A model generated the notes under the pieces. The model saw only the letters and a list, made by a program, of their open reading frames with translations, made no database searches and had not been told where the DNA came from. From Escherichia phage phi G17: a DNA stretch of 64,000 nt. Position numbers and translations under genes: made by a program. Positions 21,977 to 61,008 of the stretch are shown piece after piece. Position 1 is the stretch's first letter. Every line of letters begins with the position of its first letter. The stretch lies in the sequence record NC_070870.1; one strand, written 5' to 3'.

Positions 21977-22135
21977 TTAGTAGCTTTTAATAGATAGCTG
22001 TATTTGAGCATTATAGTCTGCTCATACTCACACTCTTCTGTCGAAGAATATGTTTACAATATCTAGAGTGCCGGACTGTCTTACCGGCATTGTCTTTAGA
22101 GTGCTAAGCAATCAGGACTATGTTCTCTATTAATG

Positions 22136-22211
22136 GGTGCCCACTACTGGATTTGAACCAGTGACTTTCCGATTATTAGTCGGTTGCTTTCCCCGTCTAA
22201 GCTAAGTGGAC
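22136..22211 (-). tRNA. tRNA gene (minus strand), apparent anticodon AAT (Ile-like?), CCA not fully encoded
   Basis: By-eye cloverleaf: acceptor GTCCACT/AGTGGGC (one G-T pair), D-stem GCTT/AAGC, anticodon stem CCGA/TCGG with loop CTAATAA, T-arm ACTGG-TTCAAAT-CCAGT, discriminator A. Confidence 0.6.
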
Positions 22212-23260
22212 ATAATAGGGTGAGTCATGCCAGGCTCTAACTGGCTCCTTCTTCGCAATCCTTACATACCCCTACATAATTATTGCGTTAAGCTTTTTTG
22301 TTTAAGTTTAAGTGAAGGTGTTCTTGCTGACTCATAATACTTTCAATTCAGAGTAGCACTCACACAGGATTGTGCCTTTGAATACCGGGAAGTATAAACG
22401 AGTGCTACTTTGAATTGGTTCCCCGTTTCTAATACACGGACGGGGACACTCCATGGTCGTTTGATAATCAGGACGACTCACTCCTGACTGAGGTTACGCT
22501 GTTAGGCGACCATCAGATACGCTTCTTCGTTTGCATTTATGTTATTGGTTCGTTTCTAAAAAACCGCATAATCGCTACGAAAACTATCGGGGAGTGCACT
22601 AGCTCTGGGCCACGCTCGTGGACATCGACCTTCCTTCCACAGCTAATCAACTAATACACTCCCCTGTTAGGAAGCTGCCAGGGATTCCACCTGGCTCCAT
22701 CTGTTTTTAAAGTCACTCAGATATCGTCTGGACTTCCCATTGCCGTGGGATGTTGATAGAAATGAGAGGTTCTATCGGGGAGTACACTTACTCGACTGGT
22801 TAAACTATATCTATCCAGCTCCCCAGCAAATGTACTCCCCGATAGTCCATAATAGGAGGGAGGGGACGAATCCTCCCTTTATACCCTATGTTGCATGTAA
22901 GATCTAACAATTCGATGCTGTAGATAGCGATACTATCCGACATTAAACCCAGCCCCTGGGGGCTTGTGTGATTATAATGCTCAACATTGAGCGGTTAGTT
23001 GATAAGGGATCTGAAGCCTTATCCCAAAGATAATAACCTTTGGGATATAGCCTAAGATTCAGAAATGGCCCCTATATGGAGAGGCCATTGATTAACCCGA
23101 ATGTTGCTTTACATTTGCTGTGATAACCAGTTCTTAAAATAGTCTGTCTGACGGATGGGGAGCCACCCCTAGCGTCAGTGCCATACGGCAAAGATTAAGT
23201 TAAGAAAGGTTATGATAGGAGTTCCTATCTCAAAGGATTCTGACAGAACCCTTCACGATA
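22212..23260. other. ORF-free, highly structured region with repeated motif CTATCGGGGAGT(G/A)CACT and multiple long inverted repeats
   Basis: No ORF of 60 aa or more on either strand for about 1.05 kb; 15-bp perfect inverted repeat 22772..22786 / 22831..22845; paralogous copy at 22584..22600 with partner CACTCCCC at 22657..22664; many further stem-loops. Confidence 0.5.
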
Positions 23261-35590: not shown

Positions 35591-36050
35591 AGATGTAAGG
35601 TTTTAAATCTGGGGGAGTGTAATCTTTCCCCTTCATGACTTTCTTATTCTCGTTGAAGATAGGTTCCCCATCTTCGAACTTAGAATAGTTTGAGCGATTG
35701 ACTTCAGCCAATGCTCCCGGGACATTCATCCCAAGGAAAGTACCGACGCCTGTTGCTGTAACAATCTGATCAGCAAGGCTATCAAGGATAGCTAAACGAT
35801 GGCTGTTCGGTGCATATACCTCTTTGTCATCTTTTTTCATTAAATCAGACAGTTTAGTTAATGCTGTAATAGCATTATGAAGAGTATTGTAAGCATCTTC
35901 TGAGTTAGAAACTAACTCGTCGAGCATCTCAACTACTTCTTCCAGATGGCAACCAATCTGGGTACTAATATTCTTACTCGTCGGATTCGATACGGCTTTT
36001 AGAAACCATTGCCGTGTGTTTTCCAGCGTACAAACGGATGAACTTGTCAT
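35589..36050 (-). CDS. Hypothetical protein (153 aa; true start may be the internal ATG at 35927)
   Basis: ORF; overlaps upstream gene. Confidence 0.4.
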   Translation of the reverse strand: MTSSSVCTLENTRQWFLKAVSNPTSKNISTQIGCHLEEVVEMLDELVSNSEDAYNTLHNAITALTKLSDLMKKDDKEVYAPNSHRLAILDSLADQIVTATGVGTFLGMNVPGALAEVNRSNYSKFEDGEPIFNENKKVMKGKDYTPPDLKPYI

Positions 36051-36369
36051 GCTCGCTCTCTTGGTTAAGGTGGCGATTATTATATGCCTCCAGAATCAAG
36101 TCCCTTACATATGAGCGAATCTCATAAGCAGGACCAACTTGCTCTGATAGCCAATCTGCCACATGGGTTGGTAATGGTCGGAGTACATTCTCCATGAACG
36201 TCCGACGTGTGTCGGCTGGTTCAATGTTTAAAGAACGCAACCGTAAGGTCACGGTCGTTGGGTGAACACCCAATGTTTTAGCAATGGTTGCCAGAGACAA
36301 TCCAACAGCATTCATTCGAATGATGTCTTCATCAGTAGCCTTACGGTTTACACGATATACATTACTCAT
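35974..36369 (-). CDS. Putative HTH DNA-binding/regulatory protein (131 aa from ATG at 36369)
   Basis: GAGGAAA upstream of ATG; helix-turn-helix-like LSLATIAKTLGVHPTTV. Confidence 0.45.
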   Translation of the reverse strand: MSNVYRVNRKATDEDIIRMNAVGLSLATIAKTLGVHPTTVTLRLRSLNIEPADTRRTFMENVLRPLPTHVADWLSEQVGPAYEIRSYVRDLILEAYNNRHLNQESEHDKFIRLYAGKHTAMVSKSRIESDE

Positions 36370-36431
36370 AGTACATTTCCTCTTCAAATTTACCCTCACT
36401 TTATTACAAGTGAGGGCATTTGAACAGGCTA

Positions 36432-51132: not shown

Positions 51133-51951
51133 TTAGTCTTCGTTTACTAATTCTTTATCAGCGAACTCCAGTACAGCTTTGTTGTAACTGGTTCCTTGAT
51201 AGTTGATGTGATAGCCCTGAGCGTAAGTACGCCCACGTTTATCGAATTTGTGACCTAGTGAGAAGTTATTACCCTCTTGGGTCACTAACTCCATTACTTC
51301 CTTAGCAGTACGGCTGTACTTCTCAAAGGCTTTGACACGTTTCTCATAGTCCTGACGGGTTTCACCCTCTTTAGGTTTATCCATGTTAGGACGGGAGTCT
51401 TTTACATAGTTAGCAACGTCCCAGTTAATACAGAGACGTTGGTTGTTCATACGGTTGATGTGGTCAAGACAGACATCCATCTCATGATGGTTCTTCTTGA
51501 GGATGATTGAGCCTTTGGACTCATAGTAACCAGTATCCCGGTTAGTCAGGACAGGCTTAGGTTTACTTACGATAGGCAATGGATACTGGAATGCCTCCAG
51601 TTCCATCTGAACATCTTCACTAATCTCATAGATAACACCGAACTTGTCGATGGTAGGGTCATAGTTGAAGCAGTCATTCTCTGCCATCTTATACAGACAG
51701 TCAGCGATATACTGAGCATCATCTGAGTGACTCATGAGAGAGCCAATCATAGTCTGAATGTCAGCACGTTTATGTAGGGCAATCTGCACCATTGCATCAA
51801 TGAGCAGCTTATAATCAATTTCCAGGTAGGCAGCGAATGCCTTAAAGTCAATTTCTTTGGATTCCTCGAACTCTTTCCTCATGCGAGGCAAAAGTTGATT
51901 CTTATTAAATAGTTTTTCGAGGGTTTTCTGGTGCTCAATGGATGCGTACAT
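51133..51951 (-). CDS. T7-like RNA polymerase N-terminal-half homolog; RNAP II small-subunit-like (272 aa)
   Basis: HKFDKRGRTYAQG resembles the T7 RNAP DWRGRVYA motif; directly upstream of the catalytic subunit. Confidence 0.75.
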   Translation of the reverse strand: MYASIEHQKTLEKLFNKNQLLPRMRKEFEESKEIDFKAFAAYLEIDYKLLIDAMVQIALHKRADIQTMIGSLMSHSDDAQYIADCLYKMAENDCFNYDPTIDKFGVIYEISEDVQMELEAFQYPLPIVSKPKPVLTNRDTGYYESKGSIILKKNHHEMDVCLDHINRMNNQRLCINWDVANYVKDSRPNMDKPKEGETRQDYEKRVKAFEKYSRTAKEVMELVTQEGNNFSLGHKFDKRGRTYAQGYHINYQGTSYNKAVLEFADKELVNED

Positions 51952-52001
51952 AGCTTCTTTCCTTTAATGAGTTAATTACCACAAGGTGCGGAGCACCCTT
52001 C

Positions 52002-53451: not shown

Positions 53452-53488
53452 GGTTCTTTCTCCTATTTAAATACATATCTAACTATTC

Positions 53489-54336: not shown

Positions 54337-54439
54337 AGTACATATCCTCTTCTAATATAAATCTATATCTAACTGGTTACTGTTTCAGTACCCTTCGTCT
54401 AAAGATACTCAAAAAGTAGAAATAGCTTATCGCATAGTT

Positions 54440-55286: not shown

Positions 55287-55376
55287 GATTTTCTATCCTT
55301 AAAGTAGATAAATATCTACTTAGACTATCTATCTAATCTTTATAAAAGGAGACTCCGAAGAGCCTCCTATATTGAT

Positions 55377-55700
55377 TTAGTCTTTAGTCAGGATGTCGAT
55401 TACTTTTGAATATTCTGCGTTATAGATACGAGCGTTCTCAGAATCTTTGCAGAATTCTTCGATACTTTTCTTACGCAGAGTTTCGTTCATAGCTGTTTCT
55501 TCAGCTAATTTGTTTACGAATGTATGCATTTCTAATTTAGTACGGATGGCTTGTTTCTCAGCCATAGTAGATACATATGAGTTAAGCATACCAACTGCTT
55601 TAGTAGCTGTGCCGAATGTATCAGCAACAGTAGTAGCAGCAGAGTTAACAGTACCAAGTAAAGTTCCTGCGGTCATACGTACAGTAGCGGTAGTAGTCAT
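55377..55700 (-). CDS. Hypothetical early protein (107 aa)
   Basis: GGAG 8 nt upstream of ATG. Confidence 0.5.
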   Translation of the reverse strand: MTTTATVRMTAGTLLGTVNSAATTVADTFGTATKAVGMLNSYVSTMAEKQAIRTKLEMHTFVNKLAEETAMNETLRKKSIEEFCKDSENARIYNAEYSKVIDILTKD

Positions 55701-55849
55701 GATGATAGCTCCAAGGTTAGATGATAGGACGACATGTCCATAACATGCGGAGCATGTGTAACGTGTAAGGTGGGGTAGGGCAGTGGCTACACGGTCAACA
55801 TACCGGGGGGGATGGTTGAGTGTAAGGGTGTAGCCCCAGCCACACCACT

Positions 55850-55900
55850 ACAGCTATACATAGCTATCAATATTTTGATATGCAAAAATATCATAGCTAT
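55850..55900. promoter_or_regulatory. Candidate operator/promoter element: direct repeats of CATAGCTATC flanking an AT-rich inverted repeat
   Basis: CATAGCTATC-aatattttgatatgcaaaaatat-CATAGCTATC read directly from plus strand; in 205-bp gap between early genes. Confidence 0.35.
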
Positions 55901-55905
55901 CTCAC

Positions 55906-56193
55906 TTATAAGCAGTTAAATAGGAGGTGAGGGGTTTGGTAGCTATCTGTATTCACATGCCACGGGGAGGACATGCTTCCCTCCCACGGGAGTACCTTTC
56001 CTGGTTCAAGTACCCTTACTATAAGTTTCTTACCTGCTATCAGTGCCAAGCCTTGTAACTCATGAAGGGTATCTTCATCGGGGACCAGAACCAGTGTGGC
56101 TTTAGCTAGCTTTAGATCTTGGAAGTCTATCTGTCTTTTTACAGAGTCGGGTCTATACCCTTTAAGAGGAATACGCGTGATAATCATAGTCAT
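55906..56193 (-). CDS. Small early protein, member of the tandem paralog family (95 aa)
   Basis: Shares LVLVPDEDTLHELQGLALIAG core with neighbours. Confidence 0.45.
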   Translation of the reverse strand: MTMIITRIPLKGYRPDSVKRQIDFQDLKLAKATLVLVPDEDTLHELQGLALIAGKKLIVRVLEPGKVLPWEGSMSSPWHVNTDSYQTPHLLFNCL

Positions 56194-56552
56194 ACGCCGT
56201 AGTCTATCTTAACCAATCTGCCTTTGTAGTAGCCAAAGTTCTTGGGAAAGGCATCATATTCGTAGAACTCTCTGGATAACTCACAAGAGTGGTATAGGGA
56301 TTCTAACTCACACCAGAATAACCCCTCATTGTTAACTTTACTGGCTCTAGCCATGACAACCAGTAGGCCAAATCTATTCGAGTAATGGATTGGACATAGA
56401 TGCTTGTCTGGGTAATCTTTCCATTGACCCTCTGTAAGGTTGCTAAGCATACCCTGTACAAAGGTCTTCCATGTCTTGGGGATAGGGAACTTAATAGCAT
56501 ACTTACGTGTTAATAGTACCCATCTGGTTCCACCTGATTTAATCAGTCTCAT
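56190..56552 (-). CDS. Hypothetical early protein (120 aa)
   Basis: ORF. Confidence 0.4.
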   Translation of the reverse strand: MRLIKSGGTRWVLLTRKYAIKFPIPKTWKTFVQGMLSNLTEGQWKDYPDKHLCPIHYSNRFGLLVVMARASKVNNEGLFWCELESLYHSCELSREFYEYDAFPKNFGYYKGRLVKIDYGV

Positions 56553-58736: not shown

Positions 58737-59426
58737 ATGAGTGAACTAACTAAGCAGCAGATTGTTAATGCCTTACCTGCTAACTTCAAGAACAGTGTGA
58801 GCCAAGAGTTGGTAGACACGATTAACAACGTAACCCAGGACCAATTGGTTGCTGAGGCATTTCGTGAAAACTTCATCTCTTACTCTGGTGTCATGAAGGA
58901 AGGCAAGTTTAAGACACAGGACTACATGAATGCAGTTCAGTATGTAACTTACAAACACATGGGCTACTCGAATAAGGAAGCCTACTTCAAGACATTCCCC
59001 AACCGACAAGCAGAACTAGTAGCACGAGGAACCAGTGAGAAAGATATTAGTGCTTACGTATCTGCTTATCACAGAGGTAAGTTAGTTAACCTAATCATGG
59101 AACAAAGTTTGGTTCCAGTGTGGATTGTGAACCAAGACAATTATCAGAAGGCAATCAACGTACAGGTTGAACTAATGAATACGGCTGTTAGTGAGAAGGT
59201 TCGTTGCGATGCAGCTAACTCTATCCTTACTCACTTAGCTAAACCAAAAGATCAGGTAACGAATATCAATCTGGACTTGAGAGAGAACTCCGGGTTGACT
59301 GACCTCAAGGCAACACTTGCTGCATTGGCTGAACAGCAAATTAGTGCAATCAATAGTGGTGTACCTACTAAAGAGATTGCTGGTTCTAAACTCGTACGTG
59401 CAGATGAGGACATTACAGATGTCTGA
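58737..59426 (+). CDS. First gene of plus-strand late block (229 aa), possibly terminase small subunit or packaging accessory
   Basis: GAGAG upstream of ATG; stop overlaps terminase start (ATGTCTGA). Confidence 0.4.
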   Translation: MSELTKQQIVNALPANFKNSVSQELVDTINNVTQDQLVAEAFRENFISYSGVMKEGKFKTQDYMNAVQYVTYKHMGYSNKEAYFKTFPNRQAELVARGTSEKDISAYVSAYHRGKLVNLIMEQSLVPVWIVNQDNYQKAINVQVELMNTAVSEKVRCDAANSILTHLAKPKDQVTNINLDLRENSGLTDLKATLAALAEQQISAINSGVPTKEIAGSKLVRADEDITDV

Positions 59427-61008
59427 GTTAATTAAACAGGAACTAGATGAATGGCTAGACCAGGTGGATTACTCCCACCTTAATTCTTCTAACTATGTTC
59501 CTAGTCAGTTTGCTCTTACCTTTGCCAACTTCATTAAGTTGGTTAATGGCAAAGAGGGCGAATCAAACAAAACACCTCCAGTTCACCTGAAGATGTTGGA
59601 TAAGATGATTAGCCCTAACCAGTATGTAGTTAACCTGTGTTTCCGTGGTGCAGGTAAGACTGCTGTATTCATGGAATACTTTACTCTGTTCCTGGCAGTG
59701 TTTGGTCACTTACCTAGTTTGGGTAAAGTAGAAGGAATGATTTACGTATCCGACTCAATGGACAACGGTGCTAAGTCTGCACGTAAGAACATTGAGTTCC
59801 GTTACAAGAATAGTGAGTTCCTTCAACAGTGGATTCCCGAAGCTACCTTTACGGATAACCTGTTAGAGTTCCGTAATGCAGAAGGACATCGACTGGGTGT
59901 TAAGTTGTTTGGTGCTAAGACAGGTCTTCGTGGTACGAAGATATATGGTAAACGCCCAACACTCTGTGTACTGGATGACTTGATTAGTGATGGTGATGCT
60001 AACTCTAAGACAAGCATGGAAGCTATTAAGGATACTGTCTATAAAGGTGTGAACCATGCCCTTGACCCAACACGTCGTAAAGTAATCTTCAACGGTACTC
60101 CCTTTAATAAGGAAGATATTATCATTGAAGCAGTTGAGTCCGGTGCATGGGATGTAAACGTATGGCCTGTGTGTGAGAAGTTCCCCTGTAGCGAAGAAGA
60201 GTTTCAGGGTGCATGGGATGACCGTTTCTCGTATGACTACATCAAAGCCCAATACGACATGGCAGTTAAGACGGGTAAGTTGGCAGGCTTCTATCAGGAA
60301 CTTATGCTTCGTATTAGTTCTGAAGATGAACGTCTTGTTCAGGATAGTGAGATTAAATGGTATAGCAGGCAGCAACTGTTAAAGATGAAGTCCTGCTACA
60401 ACTATTACATTACAACCGACTTTGCTACTTCGGAGAAACAAACCAGTGACTACAGTGTCATATCAGTTTGGGCTTATAGTTCTAATGGAGATTGGTTCTG
60501 GGTTGATGGTGTGGCTAATCGTCAGCTTATGGATAAAAACTTTGACGACTTGTTCCGTCTGGTTCAAGAATACCAACCACAAAATGTTGGTATTGAAGTC
60601 ACAGGGCAGCAGGGTGGATTCATCTCACTTCTTCAGAAAGAAATGATTAACCGTAATGTCTTCTTTAACTTTGCATCCTCTGAGGGTGGTAAGCCGGGCA
60701 TCCGTCCTGTAACCTCTAAGCTGTCACGCTTTAACCTGGTAGTTCCATGGTTCAAGGTTGGTAAGATGTACTTCCCAGAGGAGTTGAGAGATACAACTAT
60801 TATGGGTCTGTTCATGGGCCAGCTTAAACTAGCTACCATTAATGGAATTAAAGGTAAGGATGACTGTATTGATACTATCTCCATGCTGGGTTATCTCAAT
60901 CCTTGGAAACCACAAGCAGGTATGACTATGGTGGATAACAAGGGTGACCCGATGTGGGATGAGGAAGAAGAAGATAGTGTTAACCCACTACGTTCATACA
61001 TTGTGTGA
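59419..61008 (+). CDS. Terminase large subunit (529 aa from ATG at 59419)
   Basis: P-loop-like CFRGAGKTAV, Walker B-like LCVLDDLISDGD, C-terminal acidic nuclease-like region; size matches N4-type large terminase. Confidence 0.7.
   Translation: MSELIKQELDEWLDQVDYSHLNSSNYVPSQFALTFANFIKLVNGKEGESNKTPPVHLKMLDKMISPNQYVVNLCFRGAGKTAVFMEYFTLFLAVFGHLPSLGKVEGMIYVSDSMDNGAKSARKNIEFRYKNSEFLQQWIPEATFTDNLLEFRNAEGHRLGVKLFGAKTGLRGTKIYGKRPTLCVLDDLISDGDANSKTSMEAIKDTVYKGVNHALDPTRRKVIFNGTPFNKEDIIIEAVESGAWDVNVWPVCEKFPCSEEEFQGAWDDRFSYDYIKAQYDMAVKTGKLAGFYQELMLRISSEDERLVQDSEIKWYSRQQLLKMKSCYNYYITTDFATSEKQTSDYSVISVWAYSSNGDWFWVDGVANRQLMDKNFDDLFRLVQEYQPQNVGIEVTGQQGGFISLLQKEMINRNVFFNFASSEGGKPGIRPVTSKLSRFNLVVPWFKVGKMYFPEELRDTTIMGLFMGQLKLATINGIKGKDDCIDTISMLGYLNPWKPQAGMTMVDNKGDPMWDEEEEDSVNPLRSYIV

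What the first reader, a model, noticed from the sequence alone, without database searches (positions are those of the whole stretch)
55850..55900. Direct 10-mer repeats flanking an AT-rich palindrome in an early intergenic region
CATAGCTATC occurs twice, 33 bp apart, bracketing an AT-rich inverted repeat (aatattttgatatgcaaaaatat). The arrangement resembles an operator or factor-binding site, possibly for a phage early regulator, or an origin-type element. A G-rich tract (ggtggggtagggcagtgg ... ccggggggg) lies about 50 bp away at 55769..55810.
Basis: seen in the sequence. Interest (0 to 1): 0.45.

Follow-up and report, generated by a model that had tools for sequence, protein, structure and literature searches.

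The report
Conserved DNA signal beside phage genome end
The repeat-and-palindrome motif is real, but it is not an ordinary early-gene operator: it lies 16-58 bp outside the point where this N4-like phage's DNA is cut to make its left end, and part of it is conserved in distant relatives, so it is most likely part of the DNA-cutting and packaging signal.

Summary
CATAGCTATC occurs at 55859-55868 and 55892-55901, flanking the AT-rich imperfect palindrome 55869-55891. A 10-mer repeated this close is not beyond chance on its own. The core ATAGCTAT is itself a palindrome, so the whole of 55860-55900 is a 41-bp dyad, and that is rare by chance.

The window is a G7C-like (Gamaleyavirus) N4-type coliphage, and the standard map runs on the window's minus strand. 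Published end mapping of relatives (N4, IME11, Mimir124, G7C) places the direct terminal repeat at 55442-55843. The element therefore sits just outside the left-end cut, in the unique sequence ahead of the right terminal repeat. It is not in an ordinary early intergenic region.

The box nearest the cut (GATAGCTATG) is the best conserved part. It is identical in Burkholderia phage HN04 and in a metagenomic relative whose gp1 proteins are only 30-34% identical.

The distal box and the palindrome are lineage-specific. The motif occurs nowhere else in the window.

Best reading (about 0.5): a cos/pac-like recognition region for DNA maturation. Rivals are a junction promoter, a replication origin and an operator.

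The parts
55859..55868 (-). Proximal box. Reads GATAGCTATG on the phage's standard (window minus) strand. Its end is 15 nt from the left-end cut.
   Evidence: Exact copy. Best-conserved sub-region: mean identity 0.84 over 22 relatives. Exact in Burkholderia phage HN04 and IMG/VR contig L044, and 7/10 in Achromobacter phage JWDelta.
55869..55891 (.). AT-rich imperfect palindrome. Standard strand: ATATTTTTGCATATCAAAATATT, a T5 tract followed by an A4 tract.
   Evidence: Mean identity 0.70. The T-tract (TTTT) is nearly invariant. The A-tract is present in most relatives but lost in Mimir124 and several Klebsiella phages. No compensatory changes are seen.
55892..55901 (-). Distal box, GATAGCTATG on the standard strand.
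   Evidence: Exact copy. Kept only in the G7C-type lineage (0.8-1.0 identity). Elsewhere it is replaced by other (T)AGATAG-type or unrelated sequence, giving a bimodal mean of 0.55. Its spacing to the proximal box varies from 33 to 49 bp between lineages (sequences).
55860..55900 (.). A 41-bp imperfect dyad formed by the two palindromic boxes plus the AT-rich centre.
   Evidence: the repeat finder I2: 18-nt arms, 78% complementary, 5-nt centre. Such dyads occur at 8 loci against 1.3 in shuffles. The fold is weak.
55844..55858 (-). Cut-proximal motif TATAGCTGTAGTGGT (consensus TAYGRCTRYAGTG), which ends at the left-end cut.
   Evidence: Mean identity 0.72. The core TGCAGT/TGTAGT is kept even in Pseudomonas phages LUZ7 and LIT1 (..TGCAGTACTT|CAGT..), whose ends were found by run-off sequencing.
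55843..55844 (.). Inferred left-end cut. The first base of the packaged genome is window 55843, read on the minus strand.
   Evidence: The IME11 read-start peaks GTGGCTGGGG / TGTGGCTGG / TGGCTGG map to 55843, 55844 and 55842. The start of the N4 reference (TGGTGGGGCTAC) aligns to 55842. The boundaries of the Mimir124 DTR feature and the G7C repeat feature map to about 55844.
55442..55843 (-). Direct terminal repeat (402 bp). It holds 143 bp of non-coding leader plus the first 259 bp of gene 1.
   Evidence: IME11 has a 401-bp DTR with its right-end peak at AATCTTTGCAG, which is window 55442. Mimir124 has a 403-bp DTR.
55902..55930 (-). Conserved block A, CCTCCTATTTAACTGCTTATAAGTGA. It marks the outer edge of the conserved junction block.
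   Evidence: Similarity to relatives stops at about 55927-55931, and identity beyond that point is 0.29. The 12-mer TAAATAGGAGGT is present in inverted orientation in the N4, Klebsiella and pSb-1 types.
55865..55880 (.). Two overlapping perfect matches to the IHF consensus WATCAANNNNTTR, one on each strand.
   Evidence: They are 2 of only 4 perfect matches in the window. A match with at most 1 mismatch at the same place occurs in 12 of 27 junctions, including JWDelta and HN04 but not N4 or the Klebsiella phages.
55890..55919 (-). Sigma-70-like hexamers TTAACT-18-TATGAT. The -10-like hexamer overlaps the distal box.
   Evidence: Consensus scan gives 9/12, and the number of such sites in the region is no higher than in shuffles. 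A TAnAAT-like hexamer sits in front of the T-tract in most lineages (TATAAT in G7C and N4). The -35 is not conserved.
55803..55811 (-).
   Evidence: Invariant in the alignment. Present in LUZ7, LIT1, JWDelta, HN04 and L044. It lies 44-48 nt from the proximal box in every lineage that has the box.
55939..55947 (-). A third GATAGCTA box (GATAGCTAC) in the window-specific region upstream.
   Evidence: the repeat finder D2 and I3. It is not conserved in relatives.
55738..55750 (-). Context: a virion-RNA-polymerase-type hairpin promoter (CATGC-TCC-GCATG, then TTATGG) upstream of gene 1.
   Evidence: The template strand folds with a 6-bp stem and a GGA loop. The stem covaries with GTTGC..GCAAC in G7C, N4 and Klebsiella phages. 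It matches the described N4 promoter architecture.
55377..55700 (-). Context: the ortholog of N4 gene 1.
   Evidence: 64% amino-acid identity to N4 gp1; phrog_5020.

Best explanation
The element is the outer half of a bipartite cis-acting site for DNA maturation at the left-end boundary of the terminal repeat. It plays the role that cosB/cosN or a pac site plays in other phages.

Shown: the window is a G7C-like N4-type phage, and its terminal repeat maps to 55442-55843. The proximal box GATAGCTATG ends 15 nt outside the left-end cut. The invariant C7GG run lies 32 nt inside the cut. The box-to-C-run distance stays at 44-48 nt across lineages whose intervening sequence has diverged. The motif is unique in the window.

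Inferred: the phage terminase recognises the proximal box together with the cut-proximal TAYGRCTRYAGTG motif and the C-rich motifs inside the repeat, and makes the precise left-end cut between them. The terminase would be the large subunit at 59317-61008, acting with a small-subunit-like partner; the gp69-like ORF 58737-59426 is the positional candidate. The bendable T-tract/A-tract centre (a perfect IHF consensus in this phage) and the distal box would then be lineage-specific accessory parts that help assemble the nucleoprotein complex, as R sites and the I1 site do in lambda cosB.

The left end is injected first, so it is presumably packaged last. This cut would therefore be the sequence-specific termination cut. 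The same sequence also sits uncut about 400-460 bp from the right end of every virion genome.
For: 1. Position. Four independent lines place the left end at 55842-55844. These are the start of the N4 reference sequence (aligned), the IME11 high-frequency read starts (mapped through), the Mimir124 DTR feature and the G7C repeat feature. In addition, many GenBank records start exactly there.

2. Conservation. A sharply bounded non-coding block (55700-55930) straddles the cut, and similarity collapses to 0.29 beyond 55930. The proximal box scores 0.84, above the 4-fold sites of the adjacent gene 1 (0.56-0.77).

3. Deep conservation. The box is exact in HN04 (TerL 70% identical, gp1 34%) and in L044 (TerL 69%, gp1-like 30%), and 7/10 in JWDelta.

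4. Geometry. The box-to-C-run distance is fixed at 44-48 nt in all lineages. The TGCAGT motif just outside the cut and the C7GGT inside it persist even in LUZ7 and LIT1, whose TerL is only about 52-53% identical.

5. Uniqueness. The motif has a single location in 64 kb.

6. Modularity. Klebsiella phage KP8 carries a tandem duplication of the whole unit.

7. Literature. N4-type termini are treated as a class of their own, no recognition site is described in the papers held, and the IME11 authors state that they did not analyse binding sites.
Against: No binding or packaging data exist. The termini were mapped in relatives, not in this phage.

The spacing between the two boxes varies from 33 to 49 bp, which argues against a rigid two-site protein complex.

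N4 itself has a diverged proximal box (CATAGTTACT, 6/10), and some Klebsiella phages have lost the ATAG core (CTCATGTATG).

Box conservation tracks phylogeny, so it correlates equally well with presence of gp1 and with the N4-type transcription apparatus as with terminase type.

The gp69-like protein has no recognised DNA-binding or small-terminase domain.

Whether N4-type phages package from concatemers is an assumption here, not something shown.
Confidence: 0.5

Rival explanations
1. A promoter that fires rightward across the junction into the terminal repeat and gene 1, used by host sigma-70 RNA polymerase or by the phage's middle RNA polymerase II. It might also supply a replication primer, as the T7 promoter phiOR does near the right end of T7.
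For: A TAnAAT-like hexamer lies directly in front of the conserved T-tract in most lineages. It reads TATAAT in G7C and N4, TATGAT in the window and TAAAAT in HN04. The consensus scan reports TTAACT-18-TATGAT, 9/12. N4 middle promoters are described as AT-rich from -7 to +2, with thymidine the preferred start. The B and C modules are found only in lineages that have gp1, which is reported to be needed for middle-promoter use.
Against: The number of promoter-like sites in the region equals the shuffle expectation. The -35 is not conserved, and block A is inverted in the N4 type. The motif is single-copy, whereas middle promoters are many. In virion DNA the transcript would run off after about 450 nt. 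AT-rich DNA yields -10-like hexamers easily. Nothing in a promoter model explains the fixed 44-48 nt distance to the C-run.
Confidence: 0.2
2. A replication origin or end-replication element. Iteron-like GATAG boxes flank an easily unwound or cruciform-forming AT-rich dyad near the genome end.
For: The 41-bp AT-rich dyad is rare by chance. GATAG or AGATAA boxes are repeated upstream in several lineages; L044 has three AGATAATC boxes and the N4 type has TAGATAGATA. In the papers held and searched here no N4 replication origin is described. A terminal inverted repeat spans the left end close by.
Against: The dyad and the distal boxes are not conserved outside the G7C type. The hairpin energy is weak, z -1.5 to -2.3. 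No initiator protein is known. The best-conserved features are those nearest the cut and their spacing to the C-run, which suits a cleavage site better than an origin.
Confidence: 0.12
3. One reading: an operator for a phage early or middle regulator (for example the HTH protein encoded at 35974-36399) that controls transcription near the left end.
For: The boxes are palindromic and 8-10 bp long, as expected for a dimeric HTH protein. ORF 35974-36399 has weak HTH matches (HTH_38 E=3e-4). GATAG/CTATC-containing palindromes also occur in the gene 1-gene 2 intergenic region of N4 and of the window.
Against: There is no other copy of the box at any promoter in the window. In the injected genome the site lies at the far right end, about 70 kb from the early genes it would regulate. 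Conservation extends to phages of other subfamilies and hosts, and it follows the geometry of the cut site.
Confidence: 0.1
4. No function of its own: a chance repeat in a block that is conserved only because it hitch-hikes with the neighbouring terminal repeat. In other lineages the corresponding position holds a transcription terminator.
For: The 10-mer repeat is within chance expectation. The N4, Klebsiella and pSb-1 types have a hairpin of -11 to -14 kcal/mol before the T-run, which looks like a terminator.
Against: The window and the G7C type have no such hairpin (-5.6 kcal/mol, z -0.1). The box is exact at 30-34% gp1 identity, where the flanking DNA cannot be aligned. The box-to-C-run spacing is constant.
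Confidence: 0.06

Closest known systems
Lambda cos (cosN nicking site plus cosB with R3-I1-R2-R1)
   Same: A precise cut site is flanked on one side by short repeated protein-binding boxes and an IHF-type bend site. The site is unique in the genome. It lies on the side of the junction that belongs to the DNA packaged first in the next round.
   Different: Lambda makes 12-nt 5' cohesive ends and has no terminal repeat. N4-type genomes have a roughly 400-bp direct repeat, 3' extensions and a heterogeneous right end. The boxes share no sequence with lambda R sites. The IHF match is perfect only in this phage. No terminase binding has been shown.
T7/T3 concatemer junction (direct terminal repeat, short repeat arrays, CJ pause site, phiOR promoter, palindrome left of the junction)
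   Same: Both are podoviruses with short direct terminal repeats that must be duplicated during maturation. Both have conserved short repeats inside the repeat (here CCTTACAC twice) and a promoter-like, palindromic region just left of the right-hand repeat. In both, the left end enters the cell first.
   Different: There is no sequence similarity. The T7 elements lie hundreds of bp from the repeat, whereas this one lies within 60 bp. T7 uses a single phage polymerase whose pausing is linked to processing, and nothing comparable is known for N4. These T7 details are recalled from established literature and were not checked here.
pac sites of headful phages (P22, SPP1)
   Same: A small-terminase recognition site directs a series of nearby cuts. 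The N4-type right end is heterogeneous in a similar way (several ends in N4; minor ends about 9-13 bp apart in IME11).
   Different: N4-type genomes are not circularly permuted, and the left end is precise. The element described here is next to the precise end, not the variable one.
N4 virion-RNA-polymerase hairpin promoters (P1-P3)
   Same: These are cis elements of the same genome region that depend on inverted repeats. One lies 95-105 bp away, inside the repeat (55738-55750).
   Different: Those promoters have a 5-7 bp G+C-rich stem and a 3-nt purine-centred loop followed by TTATGG-like sequence. The element here is AT-rich, has 18-nt arms and a 5-nt centre, and lies outside the repeat.

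Membership tests
Terminase recognition/cleavage region (cos- or pac-type cis site) | Lies at or next to a mapped physical genome end | tested here: met
   The proximal box ends 15 nt outside the left end. That end was mapped through the N4 reference start, IME11 read-start peaks, the Mimir124 DTR feature and the G7C repeat feature. The mapping is by homology, not on this phage's own DNA.
Terminase recognition/cleavage region (cos- or pac-type cis site) | Single location in the genome | tested here: met
   ATAGCTAT, the 23-mer cut-proximal pattern and the 17-mer T-tract pattern occur only here in the 64-kb window. About 8 kb of the genome lies outside the window and was not seen.
Terminase recognition/cleavage region (cos- or pac-type cis site) | Conserved among phages that share the terminase, with fixed geometry relative to the cut | tested here: met
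   The box is exact in HN04 and L044 and 7/10 in JWDelta. The box-to-C-run distance is 44-48 nt in all. LUZ7 and LIT1 (TerL about 52-53% identical) keep only TGCAGT and C7GGT.
Terminase recognition/cleavage region (cos- or pac-type cis site) | Bound by terminase subunits and required in cis for cutting and packaging | not testable with these tools
   Needs footprinting and plasmid-transduction or mutant-phage assays.
Sigma-70 promoter | -35 and -10 hexamers with a 16-18 bp spacer, conserved in relatives | tested here: inconclusive
   TTAACT-18-TATGAT scores 9/12, but the number of such sites is no higher than in shuffles. The -10-like hexamer recurs in relatives and the -35 does not.
Sigma-70 promoter | A mapped transcription start | not testable with these tools
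   No transcript data are available for this phage group. The supplement of the LUZ7 study is not held.
N4 virion RNA polymerase hairpin promoter | A 5-7 bp stem with a 3-nt loop in the template strand, plus conserved flanks | tested here: not met
   The element has AT-rich 18-nt arms and a 5-nt centre. A true example lies at 55738-55750.
Intrinsic transcription terminator | A stable G+C-containing hairpin immediately followed by a T-run | tested here: not met
   The scan finds none in the element. The RNA fold of the window sequence ahead of the T-tract is -5.6 kcal/mol, z -0.1. The N4, Klebsiella and pSb-1 types do have a hairpin there.
IHF binding site | Match to WATCAANNNNTTR next to an A/T tract | tested here: met
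   Two overlapping perfect matches at 55865-55880, out of four in the whole window.
IHF binding site | Conservation of the match in relatives, and actual IHF binding | tested here: inconclusive
   At most 1 mismatch at the same position in 12 of 27 junctions. Absent in N4 and the Klebsiella phages. Binding cannot be tested here.
Operator of a phage transcription regulator | Dyad-symmetric sites placed at the promoters of the regulated genes, usually in several copies | tested here: not met
   Dyad symmetry is present, but no copy lies at any other intergenic region. In virion DNA the site is at the opposite end from the early genes.
Iteron-type replication origin | Several repeats at regular spacing next to an AT-rich unwinding element, plus an initiator gene | tested here: inconclusive
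   Three or four GATAGCTA-like boxes at spacings of 46, 33 and 10 bp, with an AT-rich centre. The spacing is irregular and not conserved (33-49 bp), and no initiator was identified.
Known RNA family (Rfam) | A covariance-model match | tested here: not met
   There is no hit in 55300-56300 apart from a chance CRISPR-repeat match at 56118, E=0.64.

The most novel reading that the evidence does not exclude
The box-cut-C-run arrangement is the so far undescribed packaging and maturation signal of the N4 family (Schitoviridae). The proximal GATAGCTATG box and the C7GG run would be the two arms of one recognition complex that sets the precise left end.

A bolder variant is possible. A near-copy of the box (ACAGCTATGA, 55487-55496, inside gene 1) lies 55 nt upstream of the right-end cut, and the distal copy ATAGCTATGA lies 57 nt upstream of the left-end cut. 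The same recognition event might therefore set both ends, so that the 402-bp repeat length would be encoded by the 404-bp spacing of two boxes.
Probability: 0.4. Interest if true: 0.55.

Novelty: new member of a known kind. Interest (0 to 1): 0.4.

Why it matters
N4-type phages are usually listed as a separate class of genome termini: a precise left end, a variable right end, a repeat of about 400 bp and 3' extensions. No recognition sequence for their terminase is described in the literature I could search.

A defined, conserved, single-copy candidate site would make that mechanism directly testable. The site is the box GATAGCTATG, 15 nt, the cut, 32 nt, then C7GG. It would also let annotators place the physical ends of the many N4-like genomes deposited as arbitrarily opened circles. 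And it would guide engineering of these therapeutic-candidate phages, for example packaging of plasmids or synthetic genomes.

If the element is instead a junction promoter or an origin, it would be the first cis element assigned to the right end of an N4-type genome.

Tried and rejected
1. Small ORFs across the element (55787-55894 minus, 55812-55919 plus; short CDSs are annotated here in some relatives). Rejected. The start codon is absent in G7C, single-base indels and variable C-run lengths break the frame, third positions are invariant, and the ORF would be split by the genome end.

2. Known RNA families: none.

3. Intrinsic terminator: none in this lineage.

4. Virion-polymerase hairpin promoter: the architecture does not fit.

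5. A dispersed middle-promoter motif: the T-tract and box patterns are single-copy. My recollection of an AAGACCTG middle-promoter block could not be verified. The 8-mer is over-represented but lies on both strands and inside genes.

6. Hairpin covariation in the AT palindrome: none, only a partly kept T-tract/A-tract.

7. A fixed two-box spacing: rejected, since it ranges from 33 to 49 bp.

8. Literature. Willis 2002 is not held and the LUZ7 supplement is not held. The reviews and the 2026 N4 structure paper say nothing about sequences beside the ends.

9. The Possum repeat boundary comes from read depth only, and the JWDelta record start is inexact, so neither was used to place cuts.

10. 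The pattern scan of IMG/VR for box plus C-run gave three unrelated chance hits (L042, L043, L045) besides the true relatives.

Full report
**1. Observation**

CATAGCTATC occurs at 55859-55868 and 55892-55901 and nowhere else in the window. The 23 nt between the copies, aatattttgatatgcaaaaatat, form an imperfect AT-rich inverted repeat. The G-rich tracts are at 55769-55786 and 55803-55811.

A 10-mer repeated within 50 bp is not remarkable on its own. The window holds five such loci, and first-order shuffles give 3.4 hits.

Three further points make the site unusual:
- The core ATAGCTAT is an 8-bp palindrome whose only two copies in 64 kb are these.
- Because of that, the whole of 55860-55900 is one 41-bp dyad, with 18-nt arms, 78% complementary, around a 5-nt centre.
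- Dyads of that quality occur at 8 loci in the window against 1.3 in shuffles.

As single-stranded DNA the dyad folds only weakly, at -7.3 to -7.5 kcal/mol with z -1.5 to -2.3.

**2. What the window is**

The region matches G7C-like N4-type coliphages (genus Gamaleyavirus, Schitoviridae) at 88-96% identity. ORF 59317-61008 is the large terminase, 98.8% identical to that of PhAPEC5. ORF 55377-55700 (minus strand) is the ortholog of N4 gene 1, at 64% amino-acid identity. The phage's standard map therefore runs along the window's minus strand.

**3. Where the element sits**

Four lines of evidence place the physical left end at window 55842-55844:
- The N4 reference sequence begins TGGTGGGGCTACACC and ends ..CATAGTTACTTGTGAGTTCAGTATT. 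In the alignment its first base falls at 55842.
- For IME11, which is 92.5% identical here and collinear with the window, published read-start peaks lie at GTGGCTGGGG, TGTGGCTGG and TGGCTGG, and at AATCTTTGCAG, giving a 401-bp repeat (PMC3896407). Through the coordinates these map to 55843, 55844, 55842 and 55442.
- The Mimir124 record annotates a 403-bp DTR whose boundary maps to about 55844.
- The boundary of the G7C "contains terminal repeat" feature maps to the same place. Many GenBank records also simply start there.

The terminal repeat is therefore 55442-55843.

In virion DNA this is about 400-460 bp from the right end. In any head-to-tail junction it is immediately upstream of the left-end cut. 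It is not an ordinary early intergenic region.

**4. Conservation among close and moderately distant relatives**

Similarity to relatives runs from gene 1 through the cut to about 55930 and then stops. Upstream of that point the genes differ between phages.

I aligned 23 distinct junction sequences from GenBank and IMG/VR. Mean identity to the window by sub-region was:

| Sub-region | Mean identity |
|---|---|
| Proximal box | 0.84 |
| Non-coding part of the repeat | 0.81 |
| 15 nt between box and cut | 0.72 |
| AT palindrome | 0.70 |
| Block A (55902-55930) | 0.59 |
| Distal box | 0.55 |
| Beyond 55930 | 0.29 |

For comparison, four-fold degenerate sites of gene 1 show 0.56-0.77 identity in the same comparisons.

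The distal box is bimodal. It is kept in the G7C type and replaced elsewhere by (T)AGATAG-type or unrelated sequence. The distance between the two boxes varies from 33 to 49 bp.

Within the palindrome only the T-tract is nearly invariant. The A-tract is usually present. There are no compensatory changes. The half nearest the cut is the constrained part.

**5. Deep conservation and geometry**

- Burkholderia phage HN04 has a TerL 70% identical and a gp1 34% identical. Its junction reads ..AAAATTTTGCAAGGGCAGAATTTTGATAGCTATGTTCCACAGTAGGGTA TGGGGG..CCCCCCGGTATG.
- The metagenomic contig L044 has a TerL 69%, a gp69-like protein 54% and a gp1-like protein 30% identical. It also carries an exact GATAGCTATG.
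- Achromobacter phage JWDelta has TTGATAGGTACTTCCCATTGCAGTG.
- In every lineage the box lies 44-48 nt from the C6-7GG run, even though the sequence between them has diverged.
- Pseudomonas phages LUZ7 and LIT1 have a TerL only about 52-53% identical, and LUZ7 is reported to lack a gp1 homolog. They lack the box but keep ..TGCAGTACTT|CAGT.. and C7GGT 28-32 nt inside the end. The LUZ7 ends were determined by run-off sequencing.
- Klebsiella phage KP8 has a tandem duplication of the whole unit.

**6. What it is not**

- It matches no Rfam family.
- The short ORFs across it are not conserved and would be split by the genome end.
- It is not a virion-polymerase hairpin promoter. A genuine one, with covarying stem, lies at 55738-55750.
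- It is not an intrinsic terminator in this lineage, although the N4, Klebsiella and pSb-1 types have a hairpin in front of the T-run.
- It is not a dispersed promoter motif, because the patterns are single-copy.

**7. Mechanism**

The position next to the cut, the uniqueness in the genome, the conservation that follows the terminase-bearing lineages and the fixed spacing across the cut all fit a maturation site best. Under this reading, terminase recognises the proximal box and the TAYGRCTRYAGTG motif on one side and the C-rich motifs on the other, and cuts between them.

The left end is injected first (PMC4496689). By the general rule for tailed phages it is therefore packaged last. On that inference this would be the sequence-specific termination cut. 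The heterogeneous right end would be the initiation cut.

The AT-rich centre contains two overlapping perfect IHF consensus matches, two of only four in the window. A match with at most one mismatch is kept at the same place in 12 of 27 junctions, but not in N4 itself. This recalls the I1 site of lambda cosB. It is only a consensus match, however.

All protein-DNA contacts are inferred. The gp69-like protein that some annotators call the small terminase has no recognisable domain. I put this explanation at about 0.5.

**8. Rivals**

- *Junction promoter, about 0.2.* A TAnAAT hexamer precedes the T-tract in most lineages, and the scan reports TTAACT-18-TATGAT. Against this, the -35 is not conserved, the site count is no higher than in shuffles, and a promoter does not explain the spacing to the C-run.
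- *Replication origin or end-replication element, about 0.12.* It would fit the boxes and the AT-rich dyad. But those are the least conserved features.
- *Operator of an early regulator, about 0.1.* It lacks any second site, and it lies at the wrong end of the injected DNA.
- *Pure hitch-hiking or chance, about 0.06.* This is hard to reconcile with an exact 10-mer surviving at 30-34% gp1 identity.

**9. Comparison with what is known, and novelty**

Functionally the closest models are lambda cos (cut site plus repeated boxes plus an IHF site) and the T7 concatemer junction. There is no sequence similarity to either, and the end structure differs.

The papers I could search describe N4-type termini but no recognition sequence. 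The IME11 study explicitly did not analyse binding sites. I therefore rate this as a new member of a known kind, of moderate interest. The value of the result is a concrete, testable candidate for the N4-family packaging signal.

Noticed in passing
window 55738-55750 (minus strand) and about 51975-51992 (minus strand): These are virion-RNA-polymerase-type hairpin promoters: CATGC-TCC-GCATG followed by TTATGG upstream of gene 1, and GGTGC-TCC-GCACC followed by TTGTGG upstream of the RNA polymerase II small-subunit gene (51133-51951). The first covaries with GTTGC..GCAAC in G7C, N4 and Klebsiella phages. HN04 has GATGC-TCC-GCATC.
   Followed up: partly
window 55774-55792 and 55828-55846: A 19-nt inverted repeat (79% complementary, 35 nt apart) spans the exact left terminus. 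The first roughly 16 nt of the genome can therefore pair with sequence about 50 nt inside. G7C- and Jgk1-type phages keep an inverted repeat here, but in a shifted register (TACACCC/GGGTGTA).
   Followed up: partly
window 55487-55496 (minus strand, inside gene 1): ACAGCTATGA, a 9/10 copy of the box plus its next base, lies 55 nt upstream of the right-end cut (55442). The distal box ATAGCTATGA lies 57 nt upstream of the left-end cut. The two copies are 404 bp apart and the repeat is 402 bp. The copy encodes T-A-M of the conserved EETAM motif. It is kept at the nucleotide level in all relatives except N4 and its close relative BEU5 (ACTGCAATG).
   Followed up: partly
window 55441-55456: The nucleotides around the right-end cut (GAATTCTGCAAAGAT, encoding E-F-C-K-D) are almost invariant across 21 gene 1 sequences, synonymous positions included. 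The unverified Jgk1 record contains ..TGCAAAGATT joined directly to unrelated sequence at this point, which looks like an assembly artefact at a true end.
   Followed up: partly
window 55763-55770 and 55820-55827; 55803-55811: On the standard strand CCTTACAC occurs twice, 57 bp apart, with a C7GG run between the copies. All are invariant in the E. coli and Klebsiella relatives. The C7GGT run is also present 28-32 nt from the left end of Pseudomonas phages LUZ7 and LIT1.
   Followed up: partly
window 55326-55336, 54362-54372 and 53472-53482 (minus strand): TTAGATA(G/T)(A/G)(G/T)A occurs exactly three times, always in early intergenic regions shortly before a ribosome-binding site. The N4-type junction carries the same TTAGATAGATA in place of the distal box. 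In N4, AACTATCT(A/T) is enriched in intergenic regions.
   Followed up: partly
window 55907-55930 compared with loci L006, L007, L008 and L026: The 12-mer TAAATAGGAGGT, which looks like a strong ribosome-binding site, is on the rightward strand in the N4, Klebsiella, Moo19 and pSb-1 types. It appears as its reverse complement (CCTCCTATTTA) in the G7C type, including the window. In the pSb-1 and Klebsiella types it pairs with a downstream ACCTCC to form a hairpin.
   Followed up: partly
locus L019 (Klebsiella phage KP8 / IMGVR_UViG_2974612693_000001): The whole junction unit (T-tract, A-tract, box and TAYG motif) is tandemly duplicated just outside the left-end boundary. The copy next to the cut has lost the ATAG core (CTTATCTATG).
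   Followed up: no
window, whole: The 8-mer AAGACCTG occurs 12 times against 2.6 expected (0 of 100 shuffles reach 12). The copies are on both strands and mostly inside genes.
   Followed up: no
window 35974-36399 (minus strand): This 141-aa ORF has a weak N-terminal helix-turn-helix (HTH_38 and HTH_23, below the Pfam cut-offs). It also has a weak match to the N-terminal part of a small-terminase PHROG (phrog_141, E=4e-4), although it lies in the middle-gene region.
   Followed up: partly
window 55960-55990: The direct repeat CCACGGG occurs twice, flanking the inverted repeat GGGAGG..CCCTCCC, inside the 3' part of ORF 55906-56193. This gene is not shared with most relatives.
   Followed up: no
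window 22134-22212 (minus strand): A tRNA-Ile (anticodon AAT) lies in the long non-coding stretch between the middle and late gene blocks. N4 has several tRNA genes at the corresponding place.
   Followed up: partly
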